Of a stretch of 64,000 nt of DNA, positions 14,377-54,222 are shown one piece after another. A program made the position numbers and the translations under genes. The DNA comes from Bilabrum cf. latius (lineage: Eukaryota). Below the pieces are notes generated by a model, which had not been told where the DNA came from, made no database searches, and saw only the letters and a list, made by a program, of their open reading frames with translations. The stretch lies in assembly GCA_965178125.1 (NCBI GenBank), contig OZ237774.1, forward strand, positions 1 through 64,000. Reading direction: 5' to 3'. Position 1 is the first letter of the stretch. Each line of letters starts with the position of its first letter.

Positions 14377-14407
<31 letters not shown>

Positions 14408-17685: not shown

Positions 17686-17687
17686 TA

Positions 17688-21565: not shown

Positions 21566-21647
21566 GCCACGAGCAGCTGTGGCGGTTGATGTAGCTCCTT
21601 GAACATGATTGCAGAACAGAACAGGTTTGAATTGAGCAGTGCAGGTT

Positions 21648-24164: not shown

Positions 24165-24295
24165 GTTTTGGTACGGCGTGGAATATGCTCCGAAGGCTTG
24201 CAAGGTTACAACCGGGGTTCCCGAGCCGGAGCGAAAATTCGTGCCACCGCTTGAGAAGAGAATCACGAGCATTACGGTATAGTCGTCGAACGGAG

Positions 24296-26837
24296 ATGGC
24301 AGGAAATGCGCCTGTAGACATTGTTTTGCTACGCGAGGACCAGGGCGGCGACCCGAACTGGTGGAGAAAGCAGCAGGAGCTTCGCTTCAAGGATCCAAAG
24401 GTTGTAGACCTGATCCTCGAGCATGACCAGGTGAGCCCGCACAAGGTTACAGTTTAGACGCAGCAAATCAGCCGCCTTATGATATATTGTATGTTAAGCT
24501 ATGCTGATGCGCTCAGACTGACCGCAATACACGCCATGGTTTTGCCTTTCATACCACGGGCGGCATTTGGTTCTCTCTTCTCGATGGACTCTTTTACCGG
24601 GAATGCAGGTGTTCAGGACGTCCGATACCGCCATCCGCGACCTCAAGAAGAAGAGGAACGACGCAAACAAGGAGCTTGGGGCCATGCACAAGGCGGCCAG
24701 GGGAGACAAGTGAGGCGGGTGTGACATTTCCTGTGGCTGTAGCACGAGCACCCTGTGCGCCACCACCAGTGTTCTACTTTCGTAGTGTGCATCTCAACCC
24801 GATCAACGCAGGTCTAAGATTGACACGAAGCGCCAGGCCGAGCTGGAGCAGGTCAAGGAGAGCGTCGTGGGCGACATCGAGATGAACGAGCAGCGCCGCG
24901 CCACAGCCCTGGAAGAGAGGGACCGCCTGCTGGGCCACCTGGGCAACGGGGTGCACCCTTCCGTGCCTGTGTTCCAGAGCGAGGACCACAACGAGGTCGT
25001 CAGGGAGGTGGGCGGCAAGCCCTCCCCTGCCGACGTGTACTCGGGCGAGGACGTGCCTGCCTCCCCCTTGGACGGCCGACCGAGCCCCCGCCCCCTGCAC
25101 CACCACGAGCTGCTGCACATGATCGGCGGGTACGAGGCCGAGGCGGGGTCTAAGGCCGCTGGACACAGGGGGTACTACCTCACTGGCCCTGGGTTCAAGC
25201 TGAGCATGGCAGCCGTGCAGTACGGCCTGGATTTCCTCGCGGAGAGGGGGTACACCCCCGTGCAGCCCCCTTACTTCCTCAGCAAGTCCGTGATGGGCGC
25301 CGTGGCAGAGCTCGAGGACTACGACCAGCAGCTGTACCATGTGGCTGGGGCTGGTAGCGAGCCGGAGGACAAGAAGGACGCCAAGAAGGACGCCAAGAAG
25401 GGGGCAGCCAAGGGCGGGGCTGCCTCGGGGGCGGGCACCACCGCGGTGCTGCCGACCCACGCGGCCGTGTCTGGCGGTGGGGAGGACAAGTACCTGATCG
25501 CCACGAGCGAGCAGCCCTTGTGCGCGCTGCATATGGGCCAGTCCATCGACTGCGGGTCGCTGCCACTGCAATACGCTGGATTCTCGACGTGCTTCAGGAA
25601 GGAGGCAGGCAGCCACGGGCGGGACACGTGGGGCATCTACCGCGTGCACCAGTTCGACAAGGTGGAGCAGTTCGTGATCTGCGAGCCGCACCAGTCCTGG
25701 TCCATGCACGAGAGGATGATCAAGGCCGCCGAGGAGCTGTACCAGTCCCTGGGGTTCGCCTACCGCGTGGTGACCATCGTGAGCAAGGAGCTCAACAACG
25801 CCGCCGTGAAGAAGTACGACCTGGAGGCGTGGTTCCCCGCCTACCAGGAGTACAGAGAGCTGGTCTCCTGCTCCAACTGCACGGACTACTAGGCCCGCTC
25901 CATGGGCACGACAATCCTGGGAGGTGACGCCGACTCTGCCAAGAAGCAGGCGGAGGTTGAGGCCGCCTCCGAGGCCCAGGGGGTCAAGCTGCCCGTGCCC
26001 CCGGGGTCCAGGGGACCGGAGGCACAGAGCAAGAGGCACCCTCACTTCCTGAACTCGACCCTGGTGGCGTCCACCCGCGTGCTGTGCTGCTTGCTGGAGA
26101 ACTACCAGACCCCCCGTGGCATCAAGGTGCCCGACGTGCTGGTGCCCTACATGGGCGGGACCACCTTCATCCCCTTCGTGCGCCCATGCCCCGTGAATGC
26201 CAACGCGGCCAAGATGGCTAAGGCCAAGAGCAAGAAGTCTGGCGGCGGTGGCGGCGGCGGCAAGGGCAAGGCCAAGGGTGGATAGGCCAAGGGTGGAGCC
26301 AAGGGTGGATAGGCCAAGGGTGGAGCCAAGGGTGGAGCCAAGGGTGGAGCCAAGCCAGCCGCCGCACCAAAGGCAGCTGCACCCAAGCCAGCCCACGCCG
26401 CCCCCAAGGCAACCACCGCTGCTGCTGCCGCTGCTGCTGCCCCCAGGACAGGCGGTCCCGAGGAGGGTCGCCCCGCCCTGCGCATGGGCGGCGTGGGTCT
26501 GGCCCACCTGAACGCGCGCCTGGCCAGCCTCCCCTACGTGGCGGGCTTCGCGCCGACGGGAGAAGATGCCGCCGTGCTGCGGCTGCTGGAGGCAGCCCCC
26601 CTGGTGGCTGCAGGCGGAGAGGCGCAGGCCGCGACTGGCACCACGCTGGGCTCTGCCGCCACTGTGGCTCTGGCTGCAGTCATCCCGCCCGTGCACCACG
26701 TCAGGTACCCTCACCTGGTGCGGTGGCTCAAGCGGGCCCAGGCCATGCGGCCAGCGGACTGGCAGGCGGCGGGCGTCTCGGACGGGGCTGTGGCGGGGTT
26801 CGAGGCGGGGCCGGCCAGCGCTTTCTTCCGCGGCTGA
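24296..26837 (+). CDS. SARS1: Cytosolic seryl-tRNA synthetase with C-terminal eEF1B-beta/GST-C-like domain; introns 24431-24608 and 24709-24811; TAG at 25890, 26283, 26310
   Basis: DIVLLREDQGGDP..QELRFKD, YLIATSEQP, STCFRKEAGSHGRDTWGIYRVHQFDKVEQF, ELVSCSNCTDY*AR, HFLNSTL, LLENYQT; TGA stop. Confidence 0.93.
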
Positions 26838-27160: not shown

Positions 27161-29324
27161 TCACATGCCCGGGAAATCGTCCATCTTCTCCAGCACCGCC
27201 GCCCTCCCCGCCTCAGTCTGCAGGCAGTCCACCACCTCGGCGAGCCCCTCCACCAGCGAGGTGCACCTGTACGGCACACCGTGCTCCCTGCAAGCTGCCC
27301 TCACCTTCTGCGCGATCAGGGGCAGGTTGTGCCTCGGGGCCGTGGGGAACATGTGGTGCTCCACCTGGTAGTCCAGCCCGCCCATGAGCCACGACACGAG
27401 GGACTCCCCCAGCGCCACACCGTCCTGCCCCTGGGTCTCCATGTCTCGGTCCTCGCCGTCCTTGCCCGCGGGCTTGGCTCCCATCCGCACCACCCCCTTG
27501 ATGTTGCGGGTGGTGAGGACCTGCTGCAGGTAGAATCCCCTGGGGCGGTGCTTGTGGTCGATCATGGTCATGCCGTTGTGCCCCACCACGAACATGGTGG
27601 CCAGCAGCAGCCCGCCCGTGCACTGCGCCAGCATGTAGTACGACAGCCAGGCCTCCACGGGCACGCCCACGGCCAGCAGCGCCAGCAGCCCCCCGTAGTG
27701 CAGGGCCAGCCCCGCGGGCTCCCAGTACCCCCAGGGCAGGGGGGCCTTCCGCGTCTCCTCCCCGTCCATGGCGTACCCCGAGCTGATGCCAAGCGCGTGG
27801 CACAGGCTCTGCTGGGACCACACGATGCGGGCGAAGGACAGCAGCGGCACAAACGTGTAGGCCTAGATCTTCATCTGCGCCCGCATCCACCACGCGTCCC
27901 CATCGGCGCCCTCCTTCATCCCCTGCTTCAGGTAGTAGTCCGACCAGGCCAAGAAAGGCATCGTGTCCACGTCCGGGTCACCGTCGTGCCTGCCCGCCCC
28001 CGACTCGTGGTGGTTGGGGATGGCGTGGTGCCTGTTGTGCTTGTTCTTCCACCAGTCCACGCTGAACCCCTGGCACACGTTGCCCACCCACCAGCCCAGC
28101 AAGTCGCCCAGCCGCCTGTCAGCTCCGCCCCAGGAAGCAACCCCCTCAGCGCCCTCGCTGCCCCACCCAGAGAACACCTGGTGGTGGATGTAGTCGTGCG
28201 ACAGCCACCCGCACTGCTGCCAGAACAGCGCCATCAGCAAGGCAGACACAGCCGTCCACAGGTCGGGCACCACCAGCCCCGCCTCCGCCCCCAGCAGCCC
28301 GACGACACCCGCGGCCCAGCCATCGCTCCTGGCCGAAGCGGCCGCCTCGTGCCTCTCCCGGGCCCCGTGCAGCAGCACAGCCGCGGAGGCAGCCCCCAGC
28401 GCCATCGTGCTGGCGAACTTTACCCAGTAGTACCATGCGCTCGCGTCCAGCAGCCCCTGCCGCTTGAGGTCCCCCCGCAGCCGTCGGATTGCGGCTCCGA
28501 ATGCGTCCTGCTTGGCTGCAGGCAGGCGCATGGTGGTCAGCGCAAGCCCGCTGTGTGCCTGGGTGGTGTCTTCCATTTGCACCTGCTTGTCCTTCTCCTC
28601 GCCCTCGGCTTTGCTCTCGCTTGCAGTGGTCTCTTCGCCCTGCACGGTGTCAAACCCATCCAGCGAAGTTTCGGGCCCCTCGGCGCGCCCGATGGACCGC
28701 TCGGCCACCAGCTTGCGGGCCTCGGCAGAGTGGAAGGCAGCAAACACGTCCGAGGCGTCGCGCCCCGCCCACGTGTGGATGAGAGACCCACCTGGGTGCC
28801 CATCGGGCCCGGTGGACCAGTTGCTCACGTCGCATACCTGCGGGTTCAGCGGGGCGGCGGAAAGGTGCAGATGTAACGGCGATGCCGAGATCGGTTCGGA
28901 TCCACTGGCAGCTTTACCTGGACCTAAAATACGGACATGCTGGTGTGGAGATAACAAGTGATCCTTAAGCTTTATAGCGAAGGAGTGCTGCTCATCAGCT
29001 CCTGCTGCTGCCGGCGAACTGGCTGGACTCTTCCTTGGGGGCACTGACGTGAGCACTTCCCATACCAGTTGGCGACTACAAATGCTCTGGTCATGCCCAA
29101 CAAGCAGTCAAGTGTGCAGTACGGATATATTGACTGTATTAGTGACCCCACCCATCACAGTGGGCATGAATTGCGCTGCAAAACCTTCGAACCGCACTGC
29201 TCACCACACCATCAACTACTAGCCAGGCATCCTTCGGGGTCGAATGCTCTCGAATTGCTGACCATGAGATCTTTTTGTTAGGTATCCCAGCCTGCTTTGA
29301 TGTCTGCCTTGCACCGCGCCCCAT
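27161..29324 (-). CDS. Front-end (delta-6-like) fatty acid desaturase with N-terminal cytochrome b5 domain; intron 28838-29204; TAG at 27863
   Basis: MGRGA start, AWLVVDGV|VCDVSNW..HPGG, histidine boxes HDYIHH, HNRHH, QVEHH; MKI*AYTFVPLLSFAR; TGA stop. Confidence 0.92.
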
Positions 29325-38090: not shown

Positions 38091-41000
38091 TCACCCCTGG
38101 CTGCTCCTCTCCAGCTCGGCCTCGCTCTCCACGCCAGGCGACTCGACCACCTCTACCTCCACCTCGGGGACCTCCTCGAGATCGAGGCCAGTGCCGGACC
38201 CACCCCCCATAGATCCCGTGCCGGCCCTGCTCCGCCCCCTGCCAGGGCCGACCCCCTGTGGCTGCAGCTGCACCAGCCCCCCATCGGCCGCCCCACCCAC
38301 CGCCGGGATGGTGGCACCGCGCATACGCCGCCCCCCGCGACCCGTCCCGACCCCCTCCCCCGGCGACACCGCCCCCGTCCCGCTATCCCCCCCTGCGACC
38401 ACGCCCCCGGCCCCCGGGGATACCACCTGGGCCACCCCCCCCGCAGTGGGGGCAGTCGCCTCCCTGACCATGGCCTGCACCCGCCTCCGCCACGGCTGCT
38501 GGTGAAGCACCCCGAACTGAGGGTCGAACACGGGAGCGCCACCGTGCGATGCACCCTCCCTCCGGCCCCGCCCCACCAGCCCGAGGTGACCCCGGCCCAC
38601 GTAAGACGCCAGATCCGCCTCTGTGGCAGTGCGCCTCCTGCGCAGCTCTGCACCACCATGCGGTGCACCGAAGCCTTCCCTCCCCTGCATACCCCTGGGG
38701 GGTGACCCCATGTTGGGGGACACCCCCAGCACGGTCTGCCTGCGACCTGCGGCCCTGTCCCCGTGGGCCCCGGCTGCCATCTGCCGCGCCTCATCCCCGT
38801 CGATCGGGGCACTCATCACACGGTGCAGCTGACCCAGCGCACCCTCGGACATCCCTTCCAGCCGACCCTGCCTCGCCCTGACTCCATCCTTTTCATTGTC
38901 CCTGTCCCTATCCCCGTGCGTGCCCGCCTCGGACCCGGAGCCACCGGAGGCGCCCCTGCCCCTGCCGCTGGTCGCACTGTCCGCCACACTGCCCTGCCCC
39001 TATCTCGCGCCAGTTTGACCACCCGATATCCCCTCCACCGATCGACCCACACTCCCCACATCCCCCATACCCCCCCCTAGATCCAGCCCCACTGCCTCCA
39101 CCCCCATCCCACCAGACCCCGCATTCCTCTCATGGCCCTGCCCGTCACCTGCTGACGCCACGCCCGACTCGAGAGCTGCTGGCCGACCGCCACTCTCCGC
39201 CCCCCCTGCACCACTGTCCAGCACGCCCTCCACATGCCCCTCCCCCCCCACCTCTTTCAGCATGAGGGGCCCGAGACCGGCCCGCTGCAGCCGCGCCGCC
39301 AGCCGAGCCATCCTCCGCCTCACCCTCGCCCTCGCCCGCTGCTGCTCCACGTACTGCCGGGCATAATGCGACACCATCCCGAACCGCCGCAGCACAGCCG
39401 CCTCATTGGCCGCCGCACCTCTGGCCAGCTCCACGTAGAAGAGCATCTGGGTCACCGCAAACATTGCGAACAGGCCTGCGTCCCGTGGCTTGGGCTCCCC
39501 TATCCTACCAGTGTTCCCTGGCGTGCCCGCGGCATCGAACAGCCCCGGCCTCCCGTGGTGCACGCAGTGATTGGCAGCCTCCACGCACAGGAAGCACACG
39601 GCTGCGTACATCCATGCCAACTTGTAGGCAGTGGCAGTCCACGGCCTCCAGTTGTACCACCTCAGCATGGCCCGATAGTTGGCCACATGTGCGAACAGCA
39701 GCATGGGATAGGCGCTGAAGGAGAGCACTCTGGACCAGAGCGGGGCCCCACGCCCGGGCCCGTAGTCCTCCAGCGATAAACCGTACGTGACTGCGCACAG
39801 CACTGCCAGGACCATGTGCACGTCGGCTCGGGAGAACGCCTGCCACCACCTGCCCCGCAACAGCACCACCGTGGTGATCAGCAGCATCACAGCGCGCGGG
39901 ATGATACCGATGGCTGCCAGCCCCTGGGCGATCCCGAGGTCTTTCTGAATGACCAAAAGCGCAGAAGCCGATGCCGATGCTACCAGCAGACCGCACGATG
40001 CCATGAACACCCACCGCTCGCAGCACATGGACAATCGGCTGGGGGGAGACAAAGGGGGCGGGCCGCAGCACCGGCACTGCAGCCACCCAAGGCACCCCAG
40101 CCGCACGCACACCCTGCAGCCGGGGTCTCTGCAGCACCCGTCGCAGGGAATGAAACAGGGGGGCGGGGGCAGCTGCAGCAGCGGGTCATTCAACAGGCTA
40201 AGTGGCACCTCGTCGTCCTCTTCATCGAGGTCTAGACCGGAACCGGAAGGGTACGAGGAAGAGGACGAAGAGGTGCCGGGTCTCCCACTCGTCACGATTT
40301 GCTTGTCCTCGTCACACCTCTCGCGCAGGGCACCGTTCCCAGCCGCAGAGGCCCCGCTGCACTGTCCATCAGAAGGGGGGGTTGAGGGGGAGGAGGCGGA
40401 TGAGGATGCGAGTGCGAGTGCGCTAATGGGTGCGCATGTCCCTGGTGCCAGTAGTGCGGGTGTGTGACGAAGAGAGGAGGCGTGCACCAGGGGTCCCCTG
40501 GGATGGGGTGGGGACAGGCCTCCACCCCCCCCGGGGGTCTAGATCATCCTGTCCCCGACCTCCGAGCTGGGGACGCCACTACCACCATTGTTCCCTGGGC
40601 CGGGCCCCTACAGGAGGGCAAGGAGCGCAGCTGCATCTGGACTTCCGTTCAGCGAACTGCGCCGATCCCCCTGCCCCTGCCCCTGCCCCTGCCCCTGCCC
40701 ACCGCCCGGTGTGGGCGCGGGGAGCCCGAGCACCTCGGCCACCGCTGCAGCAGCGTGCGCTGCACCCGGACCCCCGGGCCCGGGCGTGGCCGCCGGTGTT
40801 GCGACCATGCCCGCTCTCGATGAACCACCGTGCAATGCACCCGCCCCAGCCCCCGCCTGCTGAAGGTACATGCCGTGGTCAATGGCCAGAGAGTACGGGT
40901 CTGACTCCAAATGGCCCGCTACGCCCGGACCGCTGAATAGCTCTAGCAACTGGGGACACGGGCATATTCTAGGGCAACACCAGGGACAGCAAGCGCGCAG

Positions 41001-41315
41001 AAGGTCGGGGCAGGGGGCGGGCTCCCGCTCCTCGTCCATATCGGTTTCGTCGTCGCTGTCCTCGTCGGTTGCGTACTGCTCGGCGAGGGCCGCAAGAGCA
41101 TCGGATGAAATCGACACACCAATCCTCTCTTCACTAGCACCTGCTGATTCCTTTGAATGGAGCACGGGATCACCAAACTGCACACGAGCTCGAATAGGGG
41201 CCGGCGCGACTGCTTCTCCTGCTGAGTGCCTGCTGTCCGCCTTCAGCTCATTGGCTAGAGCCCTGGATGCCTCGAGGCTCCCTACGCCCCCTTTTGCTTG
41301 ATTTATATCACTCAT
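38091..41315 (-). CDS. Uncharacterised multi-pass membrane protein with long low-complexity termini; TAG at 40608, 40539, 39000
   Basis: Three ORFs in one frame joined by TAG; about 6-7 hydrophobic segments at ~39420-40010; TGA stop. Confidence 0.65.
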
Positions 41316-41672
41316 TCTACGGACTTGGATGCAGCAATTTTGCCCACTGACGGTGCGTCAGTTGCGCAACCCTTGTGGCCGAAAAAACACCCAATCGAGG
41401 TTTCAGGCTGCAACAGCCAGTAAAACGAATACACACGCGAGCGATATGACTCAATGTATATACAAAAGAGTATCGCTAGGCTAATCTAGACTTGTACGAC
41501 TAGAAATGCCGTTTTTTGGTGCGGCTACCCGCATCGCTGTGGCACGCGAAGTGCAATCGTCATATACATACCGCTGAACGAGAACCCGAAGCCGCCTCGA
41601 ATCAACACAACAGTCCAGTTATCACATAAAACAACACGAAATACCCGCTTAGAATCGCACAGATCCCAGTGC

Positions 41673-44600
41673 TTACCCCTCCATCCCCCGCGCCCCCCTT
41701 CTCGCCTCAAACTGGGCCTGCAGGGGCTCCGGCAGCCTCCACACCGACTGCCCCGTGGAGGGATCATGGAAATACACCGACCCCGACCCGGGGTCCTCGC
41801 ACACCTCCCAGCCCCCAATCCCTTCTCCAGTGGCCCGCCCCATCCCGCCACTGGCTCCATCACCTCCGGTGCCATCGCCTGCATCATCTCGCGATTCTTC
41901 ACCCAGAAAGAGAGGACCCGCGGCACCCCCGTGCAATGCATCTGCATGCACACCAATTGCCTCAATATCCTGCATCGACGCATTACCGCTCACCACGCAG
42001 CCCTCCGAAGAACCACGATCGTGCAGTGCACTGCGCCCTCCGTACAGACTGTCTCCCGGCACGCTGCCCTCGCTGTCGCCGGGCAGGCTCTCAACACTGC
42101 CATGCGCGATCTGGGTCATAACCAGGCTTTCTTCCTGGCCTGCATCCATAGCATCAATCTTCTCTTCGAACACAGTCCCAGCCTCCAATGCACCATCATC
42201 GCCGGCATGCCCCTCTGTGCTATATGTGATACTGACTGCAGTCTATCCGCAATTGACCTCGCCCTCATCCAGAGCAGCCGATTTCCCATTGACCTCGCCC
42301 TCATCCAGAGCAGCCGATTCCCCGTTGACATCGCCCTCATCCAGAGCAGCCGGTTCCCCGTTGACATCGTCCTCATCCAGAGCAGCCGATTTCCCATTGA
42401 CCTCGCCCTCATCCAGAGCAGCCGATTTCCCATTGACCTCGCCCTCATCCAGAGCAGCCGATTTCCCGTTGACATCGTCCTCATCCAGAGCAGCCGATTC
42501 CCCATTGACCTCGCCCTCATCCAGAGCAGCCGATTCCCCGTTGACATCGCCCTCATCCAGAGCAGCCGATTTCCCATTGACCTCGCCCTCATCCAGAGCA
42601 GCCGATTCCCCGTTGACATCGCCCTCATCCAGAGCAGCCGGTTCCCCGTTGACATCGTCCTCATCCAGAGCAGCCGATTCCCCGTTGACCTCGCCCTCAT
42701 CCAGAGCAGCCGATTTCCCATTGACCTCGCCCTCATCCAGAGCAGCCGATTTCCCGTTGACCTCGCCCTCATCCAGAGTAGCCGATTCCCCGTTGACATC
42801 GCCCTCATGCAGAGCAGCCGATTTCCCGTTGACATCGCCCTCATCCAGAGCAGCCGATTCCCCGTTGACCTCGCCCTCATCCAGAGCAGCCGATTTCCCA
42901 TTGACCTCGCCCTCATCCAGAGTAGCCGATTCCCCATTGACATCGCCCTCATCCAGAGCAGCCGATTTCCCGTTGACCTCGCCCTCATCCAGAGCAGCCG
43001 ATTCCCCGTTGACCTCGCCCTCATCTAGTGCTGCGAGAACACTGTTTGCGACCTGAATAGCCTAGCGAGACATGTGGAGAGTGTCGCTAGCAGCATCCGT
43101 TGCTCCACTGCTGCTACCGCCTGTGGAATCTCCTGCCATGTTGTCAGCAGTGTCAACAACAGCACAATCTTCAGGCCGACTTGGGCCATTCGTATCGTCG
43201 ATAGTTGCGCTCTCATGTGCCTGGTCCTTGCCCTCGCTGCTCTCCTCTATCTCAGCCGCAATGGCCAGCACGGCATCATCTACTATGCCCTACCTCACCG
43301 TGGGATCCGCTGAGTCCATGCCAGCACGAGTACCGTGGCTCGCTGTGGACCAAGGCATGCGCGCATTGGTATCACGTGCATCGTTCGCAATGGCATCACT
43401 GGTGCAGTTAATCCGATCTGGTCCCAGTGATCCAGCAGGCCCATCGGTGGACTCCACAGGTGCTGTAGCGGGTTTAGTCCCACCCGGATGCGCTGCCAGA
43501 TGTGCATCTTCGACGTGGCGGCCACCTTTGCCGTCGTCGTTGTACTACGGCTGTTGCTGCAGCTCTTGCTATGGCGTACCATGACCGGCATTGAAGGTGC
43601 CGATCTGCTCCATACTGTCCTCTTCATGACCTAACAGGCCACCATCCGGATTCCCTAGATCGGCTCCATGGTCCCGTTCCTGCACATATCTTGACTCATG
43701 CTTGCCGTGGTCAATCTTGCCAGTCTGCCCATTGCTGCTATGATTCACAGCTCCGTCGTGCACCTGATGCTCTTCGCCTGTGCCGCTGTCTGATTCAGCC
43801 TACACTTCTGGCTCTGCCGTTTCCATCTCATATTCGCCTCGCATGCGGGCCAGCACCTGCAGCGCCACCACCACGCTCCTGAGCTCGCTCTCCAGCGATG
43901 GGGCGGCTCTCATCAAACGGCCGCAGCACACCATCACTCCCCCAATCGCGACACCATCGCGATCATCTAAAACACCACTGCTACCTGATTCAACGGACGG
44001 ACCCCCAGGATCATCGGCCTCCTGGTGCACCCTCTCGACCTCTTCCTCGCTCCGCTGCAGCAGCTCATGCCACTCTGAGACCGAGAGGGAGTGATCCGAT
44101 CTCTGATCCGATCCCAGCCGATCGGCCCCACTGCAGCAGTGCTCCTCCGCCGTCACGACCAGCCAGCCAGGGGGGGCTGGCACCCTCAGCCCCAGCACGG
44201 CATCTGCTCCGGCACCCTACCCATCGCTGCCCCCATCTGCTCGTGACCCGCCCCCCTCCTGCTCGCCTCGCACCACCCCCAGCTTGCGCAGGCGCCCCAG
44301 CAGCACCCCCGCAGCCGCCCCCGGCGCCTCCCTCCTCATGCCTGCCTGCGCGGCCCCAAGAGCAGCGAGCAAGGTGGCGCACCTGTCGCTCGCTTCGGCC
44401 AGCCAGTCCACGGCCTGCTGCCTCCGGACAGAGGCCGAGGGGGGCGGCTGGCTTTGCCCGACCCCCCCTGCCTCTGCCTCTGGGGAAAGGGGCCCTGCAG
44501 CAGCAGCTGGTGCCCTCCCGCTGTCCTCAGCGTTGGCATGCAGGGGCGATCGGCGGGCCTGGGCCGCAGCAGGGGAGCCCAGTGGGGTCTGTCTCGAGGC

Positions 44601-47600
44601 GGAGGCGGGGGCGAGGGTGGGGGTGGTCCTCGGCGCCGCAGATGGGGGAAAACCAGAGTGCACGCTACCTCTCTCCAGAGAGCCCGACCTTCCCACAGGA
44701 CCAACCAGCGGGCTGCGGGAGCTTTCGCGTTCCCTCACAGGAAGTGACCCCTGCCGGTCCTCACTCGTCACACCATGTGCCACCCCGCGGCGCCCCAGCC
44801 CTATTCCACTACTGGCCGCCCCCCGCCGCCGCCCAATGCCCCCGTGACCAGCCCTCACCCCCACCCCCGCCCCCACCCCCGGGCCTAGTCCCAGCCTGGA
44901 CGCCCTCGCAGCAGCCTCTGCCACCGACAGGCCAGACCTCGCGCGAGTACCAGCGCGAGGACCCGGAGCCAGAATCAAGGGCCCCCCCTGGGGCGATCCT
45001 GTTCCCTGGGAAGGGGATGTCCCCGCGAGCACTAGGGGAAGTCCCCCTGGAGAGCCTGCCCCCTCCTGAGAGACGGGGGGCTCGGACCTTGGGGGCGGCG
45101 GGGGCGGGGGGCGACCGTCTTGCATGGTGCTGCCTGCACTACCATGTGGTGCACCTGGAAGCACGGCCAGGCCGGGACTCATGTCTGTCCCCCACCGGGC
45201 CCGCGCCCCCCTCTCCCTGCTCCTGCTCCTGCTCCTGCTCCGAATCCTCCTTGTTCCCTGGTCCACGTCGAATCCCACCCTCACCCCGGGGGGTGACCTC
45301 CCGTCCGGAGAGAAGCGGGGGATGGTGGATCCGGAATCGCTCGCTGCCTCCCACCCCGCTGAGAGCATGTGATCCCCCGCGGCAAACTGCCCCTTCCTCT
45401 CCCGCCCCCGCCCTCTCTCCCGCCCCCTTCGGCTCCCAGGGACGTAGCTCCGTGCAGTGCCACTGCCAATGGCCCTGGCATCCCCTTCTTTCCGGCCTCG
45501 TCCGCCGATCGGGCGATCCACCAGTCCGTTTGCCTCGGCTAGATGTTCCGCAAGCGGGATGGCGCTGCGCAGCTCCACGTCATGCGAGCCGGGCCCCACC
45601 CCCGGCCTGCCCTCCCGCCGCACCACCTGCACGCCCGCGACTGACACGAGCACGTTCTGCTTCCCCGGGTGCACGTGCGCTGGGACGCTCAGCCCAGAGC
45701 CGAACGCAGGCCCTTTCTGCCTGCGCGAGCCTCGCCCTCGCCCTCGCCCTGTTCCCCCCATCGATGTGTTCCCTGAACGGTTGCGACCGCTGCTTCCGTT
45801 GCCTCTCGGGCTCGGCAATCGACCCTATTCCTCCAAACGGTCCTCCTCCTTACCCCCCATGCCACCCATCCCTCTGCCTCTGCCGCTGCTCTTGCTCCTG
45901 CTCCTGGCCCGCCCGTAGCCGTCCACCGCTCTCCTCCTGCTCCTGCTCATGCCCCTCCGACTCACGAATCGGGGCACAGCCAGTCGGTCCACCAGAGCTC
46001 TTTGGTGACCCGCACTCGCGGCAGTCACGTCGCCCTGGCCTCGCCCTCCTGCGCCCTCCTGCGCTTCGACCTCGCCCTCCTTCCCCTCTCGTGCACCCGC
46101 ACTCGTCACACCGTTTCCACCACTCGTCACACCTCCCCCCTCTGGTACCCTGTACCTCAGCTCGAGCAGCGCGGCGGGCCCCTCCTCCCCCCTCGCCACA
46201 GCCTCCCTGATGGCCCTCTCCCGCATGGCGGCCTGCACGCGGGCATGTGCGCGGGCTGATCCCAGGGCGGCAACCCGGGGCAATGGGCTGCCCACGGTGT
46301 CCATCAGCCCCGAAATGCCGCTCCCCACCGGTAGCTGCGACCCGGAATCATTCGCACCTCTGCCCTTCCCGCCCAGCCCCTCTGTCTCCACCCCTTCCCC
46401 AGCCCCCTCCTCAGCCCCAGTAACCCCATGCCCCGCGCTTCTCCCTACCCCCTCCTCCTCCTCCAGCAGCCCCTCCCTTCCCGTCCTAGAGAACACACTC
46501 AGGTCCTACTGGTGCCGGGCGAAGACACGGGCCCTCGCGGCCTCTTTCCGCCTGGACCTGGCCGCCTCCTTGCTCCTCCTGGCCTCGGCCTCCTCCTTGC
46601 GCCTGCCCCCGGGCACGTGCGAGCCGTCCAGCCGAGTCACCTGCGGCACCACAGATACGATGGCCGCTCTGTACTTGCTCCTCCTCCTCTTATCCTCCTC
46701 CCGGGGGGTGGGTCCCCCCAGCCCAACAGCAGTCATAAGCCTTCTATCCCCCACGTTGAAAGTGCTGCTCGACCCCTTGCCCCCAGGGATCACCCCGGGG
46801 ATAGCCCCCAGCGGGGGGGGTATAGCATGTCCCCCGATGGGGTTTCCCTCCCACAGCCACAGACCCCGGAGGCTCTGGAGAACAGACAGGGGCCGCACAC
46901 CCGCCGCACTCGTCACACGGTTATCCCTCGCGTCCAGCTCCCGGAGGCCCATGGCCCCGCCCACCGCCAGCTCCCGCAGCCTGTTCCCCCGCACGGACAG
47001 CACCTCCAGCCGCCCGCAGCCCGCCAGCCCAGGCACCCTCCCCAGGGAACAGCCCTCCAGCCTCAGCTCGCGCAGGGCGGGGGCCAGCTCCAGCCAGCCG
47101 GGGGCGATGCTCCCCGTGGGCGGCAGGGCGGCGTCTCGGATGCACAGCCGCTCCAGCCGCGGCATGGGCGGCAGCGCCAGGGGGTGCGACCTCGTGTCCT
47201 CGTCTTCGTCGCTGGCAGGGGGACTGCTGTCTGGGCTGCGGGCCTTAGAGGCAGCCGGGGAAGCGAATATGCCGCTGCTGCTGCTAGCCCGCTGGCTGTG
47301 CGCGCGCGGGTTGCCCTAGGCAGGCGGCCGGCCGAGGCGTCGGGGGGAAGGCTTCAAGCGATACGGTTTCGCGTCTCGAAGGTCCACATTCCGTAAGTCT
47401 AAACGCTTCAGTGGCTCTGCCTTCGGTTCGGACAGCTTCTGCAGGAGTTTCGATCGCACATCGCGCCAGTAGGTCGGTGCTGAGGCCAGTCGCGCTGTAC
47501 GAGTGACTCGGTGGTCACCCGCTGCCGCTAGCGCCTTGCCACTTATTTCCTAGTGAACGGATTCGCCTGTTTCAGTTGCAGCTGGCTAGCTACCGGGGTT

Positions 47601-47681
47601 CACAGCCCCGTTTGGTCGAGGCGAGCGTGGCGGCGGAGGCGGGGGCCGTGCTGCATCCATCGCTGCAGGTGGCACATCCAT
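41673..47681 (-). CDS. ~2000-aa LRR protein with acidic 12-aa repeats and a C-terminal WW domain; 12 in-frame TAG; apparent TAA stop
   Basis: One continuous frame with TAG at 47586, 47550, 47316, 46506, 45825, 44217, 43800, 43569, 43545, 43290, 43062, 42243; LRRs (LRELDARDNRV, LWLWEGNPI, VTRLDG); WW GWEVCED..VYFHD..TGQSVWRLP. Confidence 0.75.
42252..43028 (-). repeat. 36-bp coding minisatellite (~21 copies) encoding DEG(E/D)VNG(K/E)SAAL
   Basis: TTGAC(C/A)TCG(C/T)CCTCATCCAGAGCAGCCGATT(T/C)CCC repeats, in frame with the LRR-WW gene. Confidence 0.92.
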
Positions 47682-47858
47682 GGAAACTGCAGACTTGATG
47701 ACGCAGTTTATAATACAGCAACAGTTAAGCTGCGCTGCCTGGTTTTGGCGATTATTGTCAGGCAGTGTGTGTCGAGGCGCCTGCAATTCATGCGGACTCG
47801 AAACGACGCGCAACTGCCCAGAACCTCTTTGGTCCGAACCGTCACGCTGCACGGTGAA

Positions 47859-49896
47859 ATGGATATGCAAGCAAACCCCGTGTCCGTATATGAGGCTTCT
47901 CTCGCTAAACTTGGGGAGTCCCGCGATGAGAGCGTCGTCGCCTAGCTCCGAGACGGTACCAGCACGATTCGAGCGCAGGCTGTGAGAGACTGGCTCGCGA
48001 TGCTGCTGCCGTCGAGTTCATTGCACAAGTTACTTTAAGGTATACAATCTCTTAGTAGCGATTTCATGCCGCAGTCGTCAGACTCCGCCGTTATTGCGCT
48101 CGCGACCGCCCTGCGCTTCGTGTCGACTCTGCAATCTTTGGATTTGGCGGGCAGCGCCTTTGGAGCGGATGGCGCCGAGTCTTTGGCAGATACGATCGAA
48201 GGTAAGCTTAACTTAATATGATAGGCGCTATGCGCACGATCCTACGGTTGCTTTGAACCGCATGGACGCATGCCTCCTCTTTGTCACTCCCTGGCCCGCA
48301 GCACTTCCTGGAGTACTGCGAGTCCGGCTGAGAGGTTGCCCCGTGGGAGACGAAGGAGCCGCTGCGGTGGTCCGCGCCGCCGCCCGCCAGGGCAGCGCCG
48401 TGACCTCCCTGGACCTCAGCCGCGCGGGGATTGGGCCCCGGGGCGCCTCGGCAGTGGCTGGTTATGTATCCGTGTGCCCTGCCCTGCGCATGCTCAATCT
48501 CGAGGAAAACCCACTCGGGGCACAGGCGGCGGGTGCACTGGCAGCGGCTGCGTTCGCCACCCGCAGACTGGAGGTGTTGGGCCTGGCTCGCACGGGGCTA
48601 GGGGACGCGGGGGCGAGGCAGCTGCTGGCCGTGTTTAGGCCACCCATGGAGGGGCTGCCCCACGAGGGGGTCCCCTCCGGTGGGGCTGGGGCTGGGGGCG
48701 ACGGCGAAGATGATTTCGGCTCCGAGTCGACTCGCCCGGTGGCCCTCAGGCTCCTCGACCTCAGCGCCAACGCCCTCGGCGAGGCGGCGGCTCGGGCTGC
48801 AGCCGAGGCGATTCCGAGTCCCCGGTGCGGCCTGCGTGAGCTGGTGCTGGCGGGGAATCCCCTGGGCAAGGCCGGCGTGGACGCGGTGCTCCGATCGGTT
48901 GGTGAGGCACGGGAGCGCAGGGTCGGGGCTGGTCGAACGCTCACCTTTTTGGACCTGTCCGGATGCTGCGAGGGTGTGACGAGTGCGGCGGAGCGGCTGG
49001 TGCCCCGGTCGAGTCGAGGACAGAGCGCAGACGGCGCCGTGCCGGCCCTGGAGCTGGACGCGGCCGAGCCTTAGGAAAGCAGTCCTGGTGCGAGTGCAGT
49101 CGTCCCGTCTGCACAGGGAGCGGGAGCGGGAGTGGGAGGCAAGACCAGTGCGGCAGGTGGCTCGGCTCATCACGGGCATGCGCCTGTACCTTCCCTGCCG
49201 GACCCATCCGCGTCTTTCTCTGCTTCCCCTTCCGGTGCCTGGGCAGCGGCCAGAGCGCCCCCACAGCCCCCGGCCCTGCCAACCGCCGCTCCCGCCTCCT
49301 CGTCATCCTCCTTGTCCTCGTCACACCTCGACCGGCTGTCCTCGTTGGAGCGAGCCGTTCAGGAGGTGGCACGGGCGGGCAGAGAGGCCCACGCCAGGGC
49401 AGAGGCGGCGGAGGCCAGGGCACAAGCGGCCGAAGGTGCGGCCCTTGAGGCCCAGCGGAGAGCCCAAGCAGCTGAGCGGGCTCTGGGGGCGCAGCGGGCG
49501 GGGGAACAAGGGGAGGCGGGGGCGGCGCAGGCGGCTCTTGAAGAGGTGCGCGGGCTGACGGGGCGGGTGGACGCGGCTCTGCGCGGGCTGCAGGAGCGGG
49601 TGGAGTCCAGGGAACAAGAGGGCGCGACGGGGGGGCAGGTGGAGGAGGTGGTGGACGCGCTGCGAGGCGAGCTGGAGGATCAGGTGCGCCGCATGGACGG
49701 TATGCTGCAGCAGCTGGCCAGGGCGGTGCAGGGCGTGGCGGGTCGGCTGGAGGGCCTGGAGGAAGCGGTGCAGGAGGAGCAGGACGCGAGTCTGAAGGCA
49801 CTCGAGGCGCTCCTGGGGCACGTGCAGGGGCAGGGATAGGGGTAGGGATAGGGGCAGAAAGGAGGGGGCAGCCCTGGTCGGAGGGTCGGGCACTGA
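47859..49896 (+). CDS. RNI-like leucine-rich-repeat protein with C-terminal coiled coil; introns 47982-48074 and 48202-48301; TAG at 47943, 49072, 49837, 49843, 49849
   Basis: LDLSRAGIGPRGA, LNLEENPLG, LDLSANALG, LVLAGNPLG repeats; ends HVQGQG*G*G*GQKGG..H-TGA. Confidence 0.75.
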
Positions 49897-51543
49897 TCCA
49901 TGTGCTACCGGTATGCGTAGCAGGGTGTAGGTTTAGCATCTCCGCAGATCTAGCACCACTAGGGTCCGTCTCTAGCGTGGTGCCAACAGTGTGAGTGAAC
50001 TGGGTGCGCTTGCAAAGGACTGTGTGTGAGGTGATGGAGGGAGGTGAGGCTCGTGTTGCCATCATCAGCTCTGCTCGTATTCTCGCCCTGCTGGTTGGGC
50101 GACCACTGGGCTCACGTCCGGCAGAGGGGGCTGGCTGGGACAGACTGGACTGCCATCGGGTCCTGTGATACGTGTCCCGAACGGGATGATCCTGCCGCGC
50201 ACAGAAAGTTTGCTCGTGTAATTTCAGTGCCCTTTATTTCGCGGACAGGACACATTGCATCGTCATGATGATGTAGCCTAACGGAAAGGTGACGTTACAA
50301 CTCGGAGCCTGCCACATGAGGAAGCTTCCTCAGCCCACATTCGCGTCCTGTCACAGTCAACCCCATCAGAGGCGAGTAGCGGACAGCATTCAAGCCAAGC
50401 AGGGCTTCTTAAGTATTGTAAACTAGTTTATCTGAGGATGTGCAATTCAAGTAAAGAATGCGAGTTTGGGTAGGGTGCAGGCGCTTCGGGTGCTGCTCCG
50501 AGAATATTGAAGCTGCTGCGTCCAACCAGCAGCATTGGCCGGACTGCAAGAGGTCCATGGCGGCATGCGCGGAATAATTCAGACCAAACAGTGAGATTAA
50601 CGCAAGATACAATGCATGCTTGCCTGCAACGTGCAGCAACATCGGGACTGGCACGTGAAGTCGAACTTCACCCCGTGTGGCGTGGCAAGCCGTGGGCTGT
50701 ATCGCGCTTGCAATCCGCCCTCTTTTGTGCGCTTGGTCCGATCGTACTCTTGCAGACTACTAGGCCACTAAAAAATGTTACTGTGGAGATCCAGGCATGG
50801 AAACCGAGTCCAGTTACACTAGCTTCGCCAATCGGAAAGGGCCGTTTGCCTTCGGCTTTAAGGTCGGACAATTCTCATCACAAGATCGGCGGTGACCGAA
50901 CCCACGATGAGAATTGCTCGGGCCCCCCTACCAGACCATCATATAGAGTATTTGGATCTAGAACCGTCTGCACTAGCAGATTAGACGGAACGCGCCAGCG
51001 AGCAAGGCAGCGCAAACGGCCAAGAGTCGTAAGGGACAGGATGCAGGTACTGCCGGGTTGGTCCGACATGTTTCGCAGCTGGGTGAAGAGGGCCGGCACT
51101 TCCGTCGGGATCTTGCCTACCATCACAGAAGAAACCGCAGATTGCTACAGGGATATTTCAAGAGATAAGGCAACGAAACGAAGTCCGCAAACGGGGGACC
51201 GATGCGTGGCACGAGGTCCGTCGGCGTCTCTACCTAGCACTGAGGCGAAGTATCTAGGTCCGCCGGGGGGTCGAAGTGCCGAAGTGCAACGGGTGAAATG
51301 CGGAATCCCTTTGATTCCAGCCTGCTTTCGCTACTCTGAGGCAGCCAATCTCGAGGCTTGTTGCTTCGCTTAAGTTTTAATCTTGATTTGAACATGATAT
51401 TCACTTCGTACCCGTACTGTCGGGGTCCTACCGCGATTCGAACCAACAAACGCCACCGGGGAGTCATAGCACCGGCGACTGCCCCCCCACTTTGGGACAG
51501 CGCAAAAAGGAAAAAAACTGCACCAATCTACAGGCATATACGT

Positions 51544-54222
51544 TCAAAAATTTTTCTCTGTGGAGAAGTTATTGAACGTGGTGTACCTGCTGACTCCCCG
51601 CAGCAGCTTGAGCACCTCCCGATCGCCCGCCACGTCATGCTGCAGCTCGGCGTCCTCCCTCGCCATCAGCGCATGGTCCTTCCGCAGGGCGCGCCGGAGC
51701 GCCGCCATGAAGGATTTCACCCTCCGGGGGGACCCGCCCTCGCCCAGCCTGCGGGTCTCCCCGACGCGACCTGCACCATGGTGACCGCGCTCGCCTGCAC
51801 GGCCGTGTTCCTCGTCTGCCGAATCTGCGTCACTACTGCTCGTCCACTCCTCCAGCTCCTCGTCTCCTGCGTGGGGCTGCACCTTTTTCATGCGCTCGCC
51901 TTGAGAGCCAGCTCCACTGCGGGCACTTCCTCGGTGATGATCCGATGGCCCCGCATCACCGGCCGCTCCTTCGACTGCACCAGCAGCAGCTCGCTATCGA
52001 TCTATATCCTCGGACCTTCTCATGTCCCTCCCCCTCCCCCTCCCACTATGCCTGTTTCCCACCTTGGATTCGTCCCACGCCCCGGCAGCTTGCAGGTCCT
52101 TCATTGACCTCACGGACGGCAGGTCGCCTCCCCTCTCCACCGGGGTGGGCTCGCCCTCCTCCTCTACCCCGCCCCTGAACCGAGCTGCAGCTGACCCCTC
52201 CTCCAACATCCCGTCACTCGTCACACTGGACACACTCGCCCCGCTGACAGACCTGCGGTGCCCCTCCCCCTTCCTATTGCTGCTGCTTCCTCTTCCCTGT
52301 CCTGCAGTCTGAGAGCTGCCGGGCACATGCGGCCGCCGGATCCTCAGACCTGGCAGTGGCGTCACCTCGTCTTCACTCCCATCTGCTTCATTTGCATCGT
52401 CTGCATTTAGATTGCTGTCCTCATTTGACGCGCCTGCCTGCCAGCGACCTGTTACGCTCGCTGCACCTGCGCCGCTATGGCCCCGTGACAACAACTGTCC
52501 CTCCTGCTATGCGTGTCCTTGCTCTTGCTCTTGCCCTCGTCCTTGCCCTTGCCCTTGCCCTTGTCCTTGCCCTTGCCCTTGTCCTTGTTCAGGCGCCACC
52601 AGCCCCACCCACGACCGATCCGGATCCAGCATGCGCGCCTGATCCTCCGCATACGCGTCTTTCCAATTCCGAATGGCTCCCAGGCCCGCGTCATCTGGGT
52701 CTGTTTCCTCCCGGGGGTTTTCCTACTGCCCTGGCTGCTCGTGCACCTGCCCCCCATCCTCCCGCAGCTGCTGAGATTGATGTTGATCCCCCCCACCAAT
52801 CGCCTTCACCTTTCTCACCTTTCTCTCCATCTCTCTCTCTTTCTCCATTGCCCTCCTCGCCTTCCTCTCTCTCCTGACCTGTCTCTTCACAGCTGCAGAC
52901 CACCCCAGCAACAGCAGAGATGCGCACCCTTTCAGCGCAAGCAGCACCAGGGCACACAGCACCGGCACCGCCACGCCCCACGCGCTGGTTCCGTCAATGC
53001 GCGGCGCCGATGCCCTGGACAGCTTGTGCTGCACGACCCGCGCCGCCACCGCCACCAGGGGCAGCACGGACAGTCCCATCCTGTGGGAGCAGTCCCTCAT
53101 CGGGTCCAGGGCAGCGGGGGCCAGCTGCCGCGCCCTCACTGCATCTCTCGCCAGCAGCCGAACGAAGCTGTGGTAGAGCTCTGGCCTGAGGCGGTTGAAC
53201 TTGGCCGCGAAGAGGTGCTTGACCCAATCGGTCGCTGCCTCCACACCGAGGATGGTGGCGTAGGCCGGCCACTCCTGCAGCAGTGGCCCGGGCCCACTCC
53301 AGTCCAGCACGATGATGAGGCACAGGAACACAGCCAGCTGGAAGCGCTCCACCCCGTCAGCCGCGACCACCTGGAAGAGCTGCTCGGGCTTGAACCGCTT
53401 GAACACCCCTGACTTGAGCTCCACAAAGTTGCTCGACACGAGCATGGGCAGCAGGGCGGTGGAGGACGAGTTCACCGCGATGCTGAGGCACACCACCTGC
53501 ACGAAATGCACCGCGCTGTGCACCACCACGTACACGGCCCCAAGGAGACAGTGGCCCCCCAGCTGCCCCAGGGCCCACCAGTCAGCCGCCCCCATCGAGA
53601 CCCCCCCCGCAGTGCCAGTGGCACCACCCCCCCCGTCCTCCAGCCCTGGGATCCTCAGTGCAGCCACGGTCCTGTAGGCAGAGCTCAGCACGTCCTACCC
53701 CATGGCAGCCAGCAGCCGATCCACGATCTCGGATATCTAGTACCAGGCGTACATGTGCAGCGCACTGCCGTTCCGTATGTGATGGTACACGGTGGACACG
53801 CGCGCGAATCCCATGGCCCACACTGCCAGCAGGAGCACCGCACCTCGCACCACGTCCAGCAGCTGGGACCTCCTGACGGATGCCACGTCTAGCCCCCTAG
53901 CGAGAGCGAGCACGCGCCCCCGAGCACTTGCTCCCAGGAGGGCACCGGCCGCCCAAGCAGCCGACCGGAAGCCCATGGTGAGCAGCATCCTGCCGAACCC
54001 GAGCGCAGCCCTCAGAGGCAGCAGCGCGCACGCCTGCAGGAACACGTCCCAGCACGCGAGCATGGAGAACATGACGAACCTCTCCAGGGCGAAGGGCACC
54101 AGCACCACGCCAAAGAGGTACTTTGGGACAGAGCCAGACGGCTCCGAGGGGCGGGCGTCGCCCCAGCGGAGCTCTGAAATCGCGAAGCGAGCTAGCCCGG
54201 AGCAGCAGTTCTGAGGCACCAT
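51544..54222 (-). CDS. TAPT1: TAPT1/Emp65 (DUF747) ER membrane protein; TAG at 53737, 53695, 52723, 52507, 51994
   Basis: VPFALERF, STVYHHIR..Y*ISEIVDRLLAAMG*DVL, AVNS..ALLPMLVSSNFVELKSGVFKRF..LFQVVAADGVERF, DWVKHLFAAKFN; TGA stop. Confidence 0.85.

What the first reader, a model, noticed from the sequence alone, without database searches (positions are those of the whole stretch)
41625..41700. TAA appears to remain a stop: UAG and UAA decoupled
Seen: 46 internal TAG versus 0 internal TAA, although CAA is freely used for Gln (e.g. the CAA-GGG run in TAPT1 near 52520-52590). Thirteen genes end in TGA. The 2000-codon LRR-WW gene ends at TAA (41673-41675) shortly after its WW domain, before AT-richer UTR-like sequence. 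Knowledge: most nuclear reassignments move UAA and UAG together (translation table 6); UAG-only changes are rare (e.g. Iotanema spirale, a rhizarian, some phyllopharyngean ciliates). Inference: a table-15-like code with an eRF1 that has lost only UAG. Caveats: this is a single TAA end, it also resembles a splice donor (G|GTAAGC), and GC3 bias reduces expected internal TAA.
Basis: partly seen in the sequence, partly recalled or inferred. Interest (0 to 1): 0.88.

Follow-up and report, generated by a model that had tools for sequence, protein, structure and literature searches.

The report
UAG codes glutamine, UAA still stops
A GC-rich protist chromosome end reads the stop codon TAG as glutamine but never uses TAA inside genes, and one gene ends on TAA, so the two codons, which almost always change meaning together, have come apart here.

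Summary
In 15 ORF pieces of 14 eukaryotic genes (12,706 codons) I count 49 in-frame TAG, 0 TAA and 0 TGA. Thirteen genes end in TGA. One, the LRR-WW gene on the minus strand, ends at TAA 41673-41675.

TAG is glutamine. It sits at Q columns in seryl-tRNA synthetase (Q in the 3 solved structures shown) and in a front-end desaturase (50 of 50 homologues). It replaces CAG in a related metagenome contig and lies inside (GQ)n repeats.

TAA is missing beyond what GC bias explains. About 7-8 are expected here and about 9 in the less GC-rich relative (20 TAG, 0 TAA), a joint chance near 1e-6.

The relative's orthologous WW gene ends within a few codons of the same place, on TGA. This supports 41673 as a real coding end.

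Still open: both ends look like phase-2 splice donors (GTAAGC, GTGAGA). There is only one TAA end. No tRNA, eRF1 or whole genome could be examined.

By one protein tree the organism groups with the stramenopile Cafeteria. Verdict: a table-15-like code, a new member of a known rare kind, possibly the first in stramenopiles.

The parts
41673..41675 (-). TAA that ends the LRR-WW reading frame. It is the proposed true stop codon.
   Evidence: The orthologue in L001 ends on TGA within a few codons of the same point after the WW domain.
41676..48017 (-). LRR-WW open frame of 2114 codons with 12 in-frame TAG and no TAA or TGA. The first Met is at residue 113 (47679-47681), and all 12 TAG lie after it.
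41730..41813 (-). WW domain (residues 2069-2096), the only stretch well conserved with the relative.
   Evidence: Pfam PF00397, E 1.3e-07. L001 gives WW at E 6.9e-08. Alignment.
41316..41672 (-). 357 bases between the TAA and the next gene's ATG, GC 0.49, read as 3' UTR plus intergenic plus 5' UTR. Not conserved with L001. Holds in-frame TAA at +8 and +18 and TGA at +17 (41622-41624).
38091..41315 (-). Next gene downstream: an unnamed Cys-rich membrane protein with 3 TAG that ends in TGA. Its ATG-AGT start is shared with L001.
25890..25892 (+). TAG at residue 393 of the seryl-tRNA synthetase ORF (24714-26837), on the Q of SCSNCTDYQ(S/A)R.
27863..27865 (-). TAG at residue 415 of the cytochrome-b5/front-end desaturase ORF (27161-29107). 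The column is Q in 50 of 50 homologues.
49837..49851 (+). Three TAG codons in the Q places of a (QG)n repeat (CAG GGG CAG GGA TAG GGG TAG GGA TAG GGG CAG) near the end of the LRR6 gene.
49072..49074 (+). TAG of the LRR6 gene, carried unchanged in a spliced contig of run X5 that lacks two GT..AG introns.
   Evidence: record 13: 47853-47981, 48075-48199 and 48300-49423, with 0 other letters.
52520..52590 (-). (GQ)n repeat of TAPT1 written with CAA. This shows A-ending Gln codons are tolerated while TAA is absent.

Best explanation
The eukaryote that owns bases 8.5-64 kb reads UAG as glutamine in every gene. UAA is not read as an amino acid. Together with UGA, the commoner stop in this GC-rich genome, UAA ends translation. 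The TAA at 41673-41675 is the true stop of the LRR-WW gene.

Shown: UAG is sense and stands for Gln. UAA is absent from coding frames well beyond GC bias, in two related organisms. The LRR-WW coding region ends at this point in both.

Inferred from what is established for other UAG-only codes: a tRNA-Gln with anticodon CUA, which pairs with UAG only; no tRNA with UUA; and an eRF1 that has lost hold of UAG but keeps UAA and UGA.
For: TAG is Gln:
- Seryl-tRNA synthetase residue 393 lies in SCSNCTDYQ(S/A)R and is matched to Q in all 3 alignments shown.
- The desaturase TAG column is Q in 50 of 50 homologues and is one of only 6 invariant columns.
- Two TAG of L001 align to the window's CAG in 20/21- and 21/21-identical contexts.
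- TAG lies in the Q places of (QG)n.
- TAG is kept in a spliced contig.
- The alignment to human HADHA runs unbroken across TAG 179.

TAA is not sense:
- In-frame TAA 0 against TAG 49 in 12,706 codons. Out of frame, TAA is 18 and 28.
- From CAA 63 and CAG 405, about 7.6 TAA are expected.
- L001 has 1,354 codons, GC3 0.47-0.55, TAG 20, TAA 0, CAA 13 and CAG 28, so about 9 are expected.
- The joint chance is near 1e-6 (my arithmetic).
- Freeing TAA adds only short, low-GC3 pieces at gene ends.

TAA ends a gene:
- The window reads ...WRLPEPLQAQFEARRGARGMEG-TAA. L001 reads ...WQLPVELQRAYYSDPKRELQ-TGA.
- Sequence after the stop is not conserved.
- The next gene's ATG-AGT is conserved.
- 3 of the 12 TGA ends listed also read GTGAG by chance, so donor likeness is weak evidence.
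- None of the 15 joints shown of 16 starts at 41673.
Against: - Only 1 of 14 genes ends in TAA.
- The site reads G|GTAAGC, like the confirmed donor AG|GTAAGC at 48202. L001 reads A|GTGAGA in the same phase 2.
- A phase-2 GTRAG intron always reads NNG-TAA or NNG-TGA when unspliced. NAT10 intron 1 shows this (ACG TGA).
- In both organisms an AG acceptor exists that would join the WW frame in phase to the downstream ORF.
- The 357 bases after the TAA have the same GC (0.49) as confirmed introns (0.48-0.62).
- Cover by RNA-derived contigs across 41378-41877 could not be seen.
- One TAG, apiosidase residue 511, sits where 40 of 40 homologues have W, Y or F.
- No tRNA, eRF1 or genome-wide tally was available.
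Confidence: 0.75

Rival explanations
1. The TAA at 41673 is not a stop. It is the first in-frame triplet of a phase-2 intron (GG|GTAAGC). The coding sequence goes on, either into a short last exon or in frame into the downstream ORF 38091-41357. Every gene in the window then ends in TGA. UAA would still be unused as a sense codon, but its role as a terminator would have no example here.
For: - Confirmed or homology-defined donors are GTGAGA, GTAAGC, GTGAGA, GTGAGT and GTGAGA.
- L001 has GTGAGA at the aligned place in the same phase.
- In-phase AG acceptors lead into the downstream ORF in both organisms, giving introns of about 330 and 387 bases.
- The GC of the 357 bases equals that of introns.
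Against: - Such an intron would be about twice the longest of the five known (93-172 bases).
- 3 of the 12 TGA ends listed read GTGAG by chance: desaturase, Patched-like and GDP-fucose synthase. The ORFs carrying these ends hold the Pfam domains.
- The downstream gene keeps a shared ATG-AGT start after unconserved sequence.
- Candidate last-exon peptides of the two organisms score at most 41 by BLOSUM62, so there is no sign of a shared exon.
- A contig of run X6 runs unbroken from 40873 to 41377, 31 bases past the candidate acceptor. This is weak, because the kind of run is a guess.
- No joint at 41673 appears among the 15 of 16 shown.
Confidence: 0.15
2. The code is table-6-like, with both UAA and UAG read as Gln and UGA the only stop. 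TAA is merely very rare because of GC bias. The LRR-WW protein then runs 16 codons further to TGA 41622-41624.
For: - 13 of 14 genes end in TGA.
- UAA and UAG nearly always change together (PMC5304391 and PMC11687900, passages read).
Against: - There are 0 TAA where about 7.6 and about 9 are expected in two organisms, a joint chance near 1e-6.
- CAA is used freely, 16 times in TAPT1.
- The 16-codon tail would hold a further TAA and has GC3 0.38.
- The orthologue stops at the homologous place.
Confidence: 0.04
3. UAG has two meanings depending on context, sense inside genes and stop near the 3' end. The code would then be ambiguous rather than a clean reassignment.
For: L001's WW gene ends ...TTG TAG TGA, so its last sense codon could itself be the stop.
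Against: - No gene in the window needs TAG as its stop.
- TAG is as common in frame (49) as out of frame (51-60), so it is not avoided.
- Three TAG lie 14 to 18 codons before the TGA of LRR6.
Confidence: 0.03

Closest known systems
Iotanema spirale (Fornicata): UAG to Gln, with UAA not reassigned with it (PMC5304391, PMC11687900; passages read)
   Same: The same codon change: UAG alone becomes Gln and UAA keeps its stop meaning.
   Different: An unrelated lineage (a metamonad). That case rests on a transcriptome with an eRF1 GTS-motif change (T32G). Here no eRF1 or tRNA could be seen, and the genome is GC-rich with UGA the main stop.
Phyllopharyngean ciliates and Protocruzia tuzeti: UAG (not UAA) to Gln (PMC11687900, discussion passages read)
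   Same: UAG-only reassignment to Gln, arisen independently several times. Found partly in metagenome-assembled genomes.
   Different: Those are ciliates, the group already known for code changes. This organism groups with the stramenopile Cafeteria in a NAT10 tree.
Table-6 type, UAA and UAG both to Gln: many ciliates, Ulvophyceae, Hexamita, Streblomastix, Amoeboaphelidium
   Same: UAG is read as Gln and UGA is the dominant stop.
   Different: The defining in-frame UAA is absent here: 0 of 12,706 and 0 of 1,354 codons.
Other UAG-only codes with another amino acid: Rhizaria sp. exLh (Leu) and Scotinosphaera (Ser)
   Same: UAG and UAA are decoupled, with UAA kept as a stop.
   Different: The amino acid here is Gln, not Leu or Ser.
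Cafeteria roenbergensis (bicosoecid), the nearest named relative by NAT10
   Same: About 70% GC, according to the abstract of preprint 10.1101/751586. NAT10 exon 1 is 85% identical over 67 residues and the sequences form a clade at SH-aLRT 99.
   Different: The passages read mention a non-standard code only for its mitochondrion (UGA as Trp). Nothing there suggests nuclear UAG is sense.

Membership tests
UAG-only to Gln nuclear code (NCBI table 15 pattern) | In-frame UAG inside conserved genes, at columns where homologues have Gln | tested here: met
   SerRS motif Q. Desaturase column Q in 50 of 50. CAG/TAG exchange in identical contexts. One contrary site: apiosidase 511, W/Y/F in 40 of 40. 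The other apiosidase, HADHA and TAPT1 sites fall in variable columns.
UAG-only to Gln nuclear code (NCBI table 15 pattern) | UAA absent from coding frames beyond what base composition explains | tested here: met
   0 of 12,706 codons with 49 TAG. 0 of 1,354 with 20 TAG in L001. Expected about 7.6 and about 9.
UAG-only to Gln nuclear code (NCBI table 15 pattern) | UAA used as a terminator of genes | tested here: inconclusive
   1 of 14 genes. The end is shared in position with the orthologue's TGA, but the site is donor-like in both.
UAG-only to Gln nuclear code (NCBI table 15 pattern) | UAG kept in mature mRNA (not edited, not in an intron) | tested here: met
   Spliced contig of run X5 carries TAG 49072-49074 with 0 other letters. 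This covers one site only.
UAG-only to Gln nuclear code (NCBI table 15 pattern) | tRNA-Gln(CUA) present and tRNA(UUA) absent | not testable with these tools
   0 tRNA genes in the window and in L001. No Rfam match. No genome held.
UAG-only to Gln nuclear code (NCBI table 15 pattern) | eRF1 N-domain altered at sites that read the third stop-codon base | not testable with these tools
   eRF1 is not in the window and no genome is held.
UAR to Gln code (NCBI table 6) | In-frame UAA as well as UAG at Gln columns | tested here: not met
   No in-frame TAA in either organism.
Codes with no dedicated stop (Condylostoma or Blastocrithidia type) | All three stop codons also occur in frame | tested here: not met
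   In-frame TGA 0 and TAA 0.

The most novel reading that the evidence does not exclude
This is the first nuclear stop-codon reassignment in stramenopiles. A Cafeteria-related (bicosoecid-like) clade with at least two divergent members (the window organism and the L001 organism, about 70% protein identity in a shared gene) reads UAG as Gln while UAA stays a stop. The change would therefore be ancestral to a clade and not a single odd genome. It would add an independent origin of the rare decoupling of UAG from UAA, this time in a GC-rich genome where UGA is the main stop.
Probability: 0.45. Interest if true: 0.75.

Novelty: new member of a known kind. Interest (0 to 1): 0.62.

Why it matters
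UAA and UAG almost always share one meaning. Each independent case where they part tests ideas on how eRF1 and suppressor tRNAs constrain code change.

A case in a GC-rich, Cafeteria-like flagellate, with a second divergent member already in a metagenome, would widen the known range beyond ciliates, a fornicate, a rhizarian and a green alga. It would also give a lineage near a culturable relative in which to compare eRF1 and tRNA-Gln.

There is a practical point as well. Gene callers using the standard code will cut these proteins at every TAG. One hit of the desaturase search is a 93-residue fragment 99% identical to its C-terminus, which may be such a cut product.

Tried and rejected
- Whole genome: none is held.
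- tRNA and RNA families: 0 tRNA genes in the window and in L001. No Rfam family at gathering score.
- Sequencing runs: no listed holder is on record as RNA. Four runs were laid as contigs. X5 and X6 carry spliced forms, but whether their contigs cover or bridge 41378-41877 could not be seen because table 8 was cut. That gap is not used as evidence.
- TAPT1 homologue search gave only 3 hits, and both TAG sites fell in variable columns.
- Apiosidase alignment: 4 alignable TAG sites fell in variable or non-Gln columns and a fifth lies in an insertion absent from all 40 homologues.
- Protein atlas on NAT10 gave only the family, with no useful taxonomy.
- More DNA of the lineage: one metagenome scan gave a single 4.4-kb contig. 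Two scans of prokaryote genome contigs and one of viral contigs gave nothing.
- The shared 9-mer ATGTATATG downstream of both stops is rejected as a signal. By my estimate a shared 9-mer between two regions of this size is about as likely as not.
- The search for a conserved last exon after a putative intron gave a best peptide pair score of 41, so no support.
- Earlier findings of the scan: three look-ups returned nothing.
- Literature: searches found no report of a nuclear code change in stramenopiles. The library misses most subscription journals, and supplements were not opened.
Full report
**What the window is**

The first 8.5 kb is bacterial in content and composition. It holds a photolyase, a nucleotidyl transferase, adenylate kinase, Obg and a PKD/CHU_C type IX secretion protein, at GC 0.41-0.44.

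At 8543 this abuts, with no gap, 86 copies of AACCCT, a telomere-type repeat (recalled: the complement of TTAGGG). After it come 155-bp and 339-bp satellites and further arrays of the same hexamer up to about 17.9 kb.

From about 19 kb the sequence is GC-rich (0.57-0.71) and carries closely spaced eukaryotic genes with few, short GT..AG introns. No whole genome is held for the window.

**The observation**

The LRR-WW gene lies on the minus strand. With TAG read as a residue, its frame is open for 2114 codons from 48017 to a TAA at 41675-41673. It holds an LRR at residues 313-350 and a WW domain at 2069-2096. All 12 of its TAG lie after the first Met at residue 113.

Using Pfam, solved-structure matches and the GC1/2/3 pattern, I defined 15 ORF pieces of 14 genes:
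- HADHA-like trifunctional enzyme (two exons)
- an unnamed gene at 21648-24386
- seryl-tRNA synthetase
- cytochrome-b5/front-end desaturase
- succinyl-CoA ligase beta
- a Patched/SSD-like protein
- an apiosidase-like protein with DUF5060 and a SUEL lectin domain
- an unnamed Cys-rich membrane protein at 38091-41357
- LRR-WW
- an LRR_6 protein ("LRR6")
- TAPT1/DUF747
- an unnamed gene at 54689-57967
- a GDP-fucose-synthase-like epimerase
- NAT10

.

Over their 12,706 codons the in-frame counts are TAA 0, TAG 49 and TGA 0. The other two frames of the same strand hold TAA 18 and 28, TAG 60 and 51, TGA 212 and 195. So TAG is not avoided in frame, while TAA is avoided as fully as TGA.

Thirteen genes end in TGA and one in TAA.

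Five of the 49 TAG lie in ORF parts that are probably leader or intron: HADHA 488, SerRS 24, Patched 4, apiosidase 1 and epimerase 16. That leaves 44.

**Is the zero an artefact or a matter of composition?**

The ORFs were delimited by TAA, so I freed TAA and looked again. No gene is split. Only four genes extend upstream, by 62-141 codons of GC3 0.50-0.59. LRR-WW extends downstream by 16 codons of GC3 0.38. For NAT10 the upstream TAA lies in a homology-defined intron. For LRR6 the ORF start lies in an intron shown by a spliced contig.

On composition, A-ending codons of two-fold A/G pairs have shares of 0.135 (CAA), 0.18 (GAA), 0.17 (AAA) and 0.15 (TTA). If TAA were used like CAA, 49 TAG predict about 7.6 TAA. 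The chance of none is 6e-4, or about 2e-3 for 44 TAG (and my arithmetic).

TAPT1 alone uses CAA 16 times, mostly in a (GQ)n run at 52520-52590.

**TAG is glutamine**

- In seryl-tRNA synthetase, TAG is residue 393 of the ORF, inside ...ELVSCSNCTDYQARS.... It is matched to Q in the three alignments shown against solved cytoplasmic enzymes (6ote and two 3q-series entries) out of 29 hits.
- In the desaturase, TAG (query residue 356) falls in one of six invariant columns and is Q in 50 of 50 homologues. By comparison, the query's 17 ordinary Q columns average 0.42 Q.
- In LRR6 three TAG occupy the Q places of CAG GGG CAG GGA TAG GGG TAG GGA TAG GGG CAG.
- The alignment to human HADHA runs unbroken over TAG 179, a variable column that is R in human.
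- Against: apiosidase TAG 511 lies where 40 of 40 homologues have W, Y or F. The other apiosidase and TAPT1 sites are in variable columns.

**A relative**

One metagenome scan with the downstream protein found a single locus, L001, a 4407-base contig. It is syntenic. A 5'-open frame of 711 codons ends with a WW domain. After about 390 bases comes the orthologue of the membrane protein, 70% identical over the aligned part.

L001 is less GC-rich: 0.56 overall, with GC3 0.47 and 0.55.

Two of its TAG align to the window's CAG in contexts identical at 20 of 21 and 21 of 21 columns...CPRICPCPQLLELFSGPGV... and ...LLRGRWWQAFSRADVHMV....

In its 1,354 codons there are 20 TAG and no TAA, with CAA 13 and CAG 28. 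About 9 TAA would be expected, and the chance of none is about 5e-4 (my arithmetic).

Taken together the two organisms give a chance near 1e-6 that TAA is a Gln codon used like CAA.

**The TAA end itself**

Outside the WW domain the two LRR-WW proteins are barely alike, 182 identical of 647 aligned. But both stop shortly after the WW domain.
- Window: ...GGWEVCEDPGSGSVYFHDPSTGQSVWRLPEPLQAQFEARRGARGMEG then TAA.
- L001...GEWEVCEDPGSGTEYFYHPNTGESAWQLPVELQRAYYSDPKRELQ then TGA.

The DNA after the stops is not conserved. The ATG-AGT of the next gene is shared, after unconserved sequence. This is what a true coding end followed by a separate gene looks like.

**The main rival**

The site reads GG|GTAAGC. 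The five donors known here are GTGAGA, GTAAGC, GTGAGA (spliced contigs), GTGAGT (HADHA) and GTGAGA (NAT10).

L001 has TA|GTGAGA at the aligned place and in the same phase. A phase-2 GTRAG intron necessarily reads as a stop when unspliced. NAT10 intron 1 does exactly this (ACG TGA). In both organisms an AG acceptor exists that would join the WW frame in phase to the downstream ORF.

Against this:
- Such introns would be 330 and 387 bases, while the five known are 93-172.
- 3 of the 12 TGA ends listed read GTGAG by chance, so the motif says little.
- No candidate last-exon peptides are alike between the organisms (best score 41).
- A contig of run X6 runs unbroken from 40873 to 41377, beyond the candidate acceptor. 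The kind of that run is only a guess.
- No joint at 41673 is among the 15 of 16 joints shown.

I put this rival at about 0.15. Even if it were true, TAA would remain unused as a sense codon.

**Who it is**

NAT10 hits with names are mostly stramenopiles. In a quick maximum-likelihood tree of 33 rows the window's NAT10 sits with Cafeteria roenbergensis and two unnamed sequences (SH-aLRT 99), inside a stramenopile group (99).

Two caveats apply. The careful search did not finish, and the window, Cafeteria and others have a deviant amino-acid make-up, which can draw GC-rich taxa together.

NAT10 exon 1 is 85% identical to Cafeteria's over 67 residues. The Cafeteria genome is about 70% GC (abstract of 10.1101/751586).

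**What is known**

From passages of PMC11687900 and PMC5304391:
- UAG alone is Gln in Iotanema spirale, Protocruzia tuzeti and two phyllopharyngean lineages.
- UAG alone is Leu in a rhizarian and some phyllopharyngeans.
- UAG alone is Ser in Scotinosphaera.
- UAR to Gln is far commoner.

Seven full-text searches found no report of a nuclear code change in a stramenopile. The library lacks most subscription journals, and supplements were not opened.

**Mechanism**

Shown: the codon meanings above. Inferred, from the mechanism discussed in PMC5304391: a tRNA-Gln with anticodon CUA that reads only UAG, no UUA tRNA, and an eRF1 weakened for UAG alone. None of these parts could be looked for here.

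**Verdict**

It is a new member of a known rare kind, of more than routine interest because of the lineage and because a second, divergent member exists.

Noticed in passing
window 1-8542 against 8543 onward: Bacterial genes (photolyase 282-1406, nucleotidyl transferase 2112-2768, adenylate kinase 2729-3415, Obg 3397-4425, PKD/CHU_C type IX secretion protein 5306-6601; GC 0.41-0.44) abut a eukaryotic telomere-type array with no gap or N. The window is either a chimeric join or two records laid end to end.
   Followed up: partly
window 8543-17921: A chromosome-end structure. It holds 86 copies of AACCCT, then a 155-bp satellite, six further arrays of the same hexamer, a 1662-bp higher-order unit repeated at 11561, 13223 and 14885, a 339-bp repeat and a 55-bp repeat. 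The gene-rich part starts about 1 kb after the last array.
   Followed up: partly
window 36465-36467 (apiosidase-like ORF residue 511, minus strand): This TAG sits where 40 of 40 homologues have W (24), Y (12) or F (4). It is the one site that does not fit Gln. It could be a real substitution, or a hint that not every TAG is read alike.
   Followed up: no
window 24714-26837: The seryl-tRNA synthetase carries a long C-terminal extension after the core. A K/A/G-rich run with two TAG (GGAKGGQAKGG...) is followed by about 170 further residues with no Pfam match.
   Followed up: no
window 49830-49856, 52520-52590 and the 38091-41357 ORF; L001 2-20: (GQ)n dipeptide repeats recur in four unrelated proteins of the two organisms. 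They are written with CAG/TAG in one and CAA in another.
   Followed up: no
window 50350-52506: A contig of run X5 joins 50350-50590 to 50756-52506 across a GT..AG intron on the + strand. It then runs antisense over the 3' part of TAPT1 (51544-52506). This suggests overlapping convergent transcripts or an unannotated + strand gene (ORF 50282-51373, no Pfam match).
   Followed up: no
window 63254-63425: NAT10 intron 1 (172 bases, phase 2, donor GTGAGA) reads ACG TGA when unspliced. Exon 1 (63426-63626) is 85% identical to Cafeteria roenbergensis.
   Followed up: yes
window 21565-21648: The HADHA-like gene and the unnamed minus-strand gene converge with only 82 bases between their TGA codons. 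The 3' UTRs must therefore be very short or overlapping.
   Followed up: no
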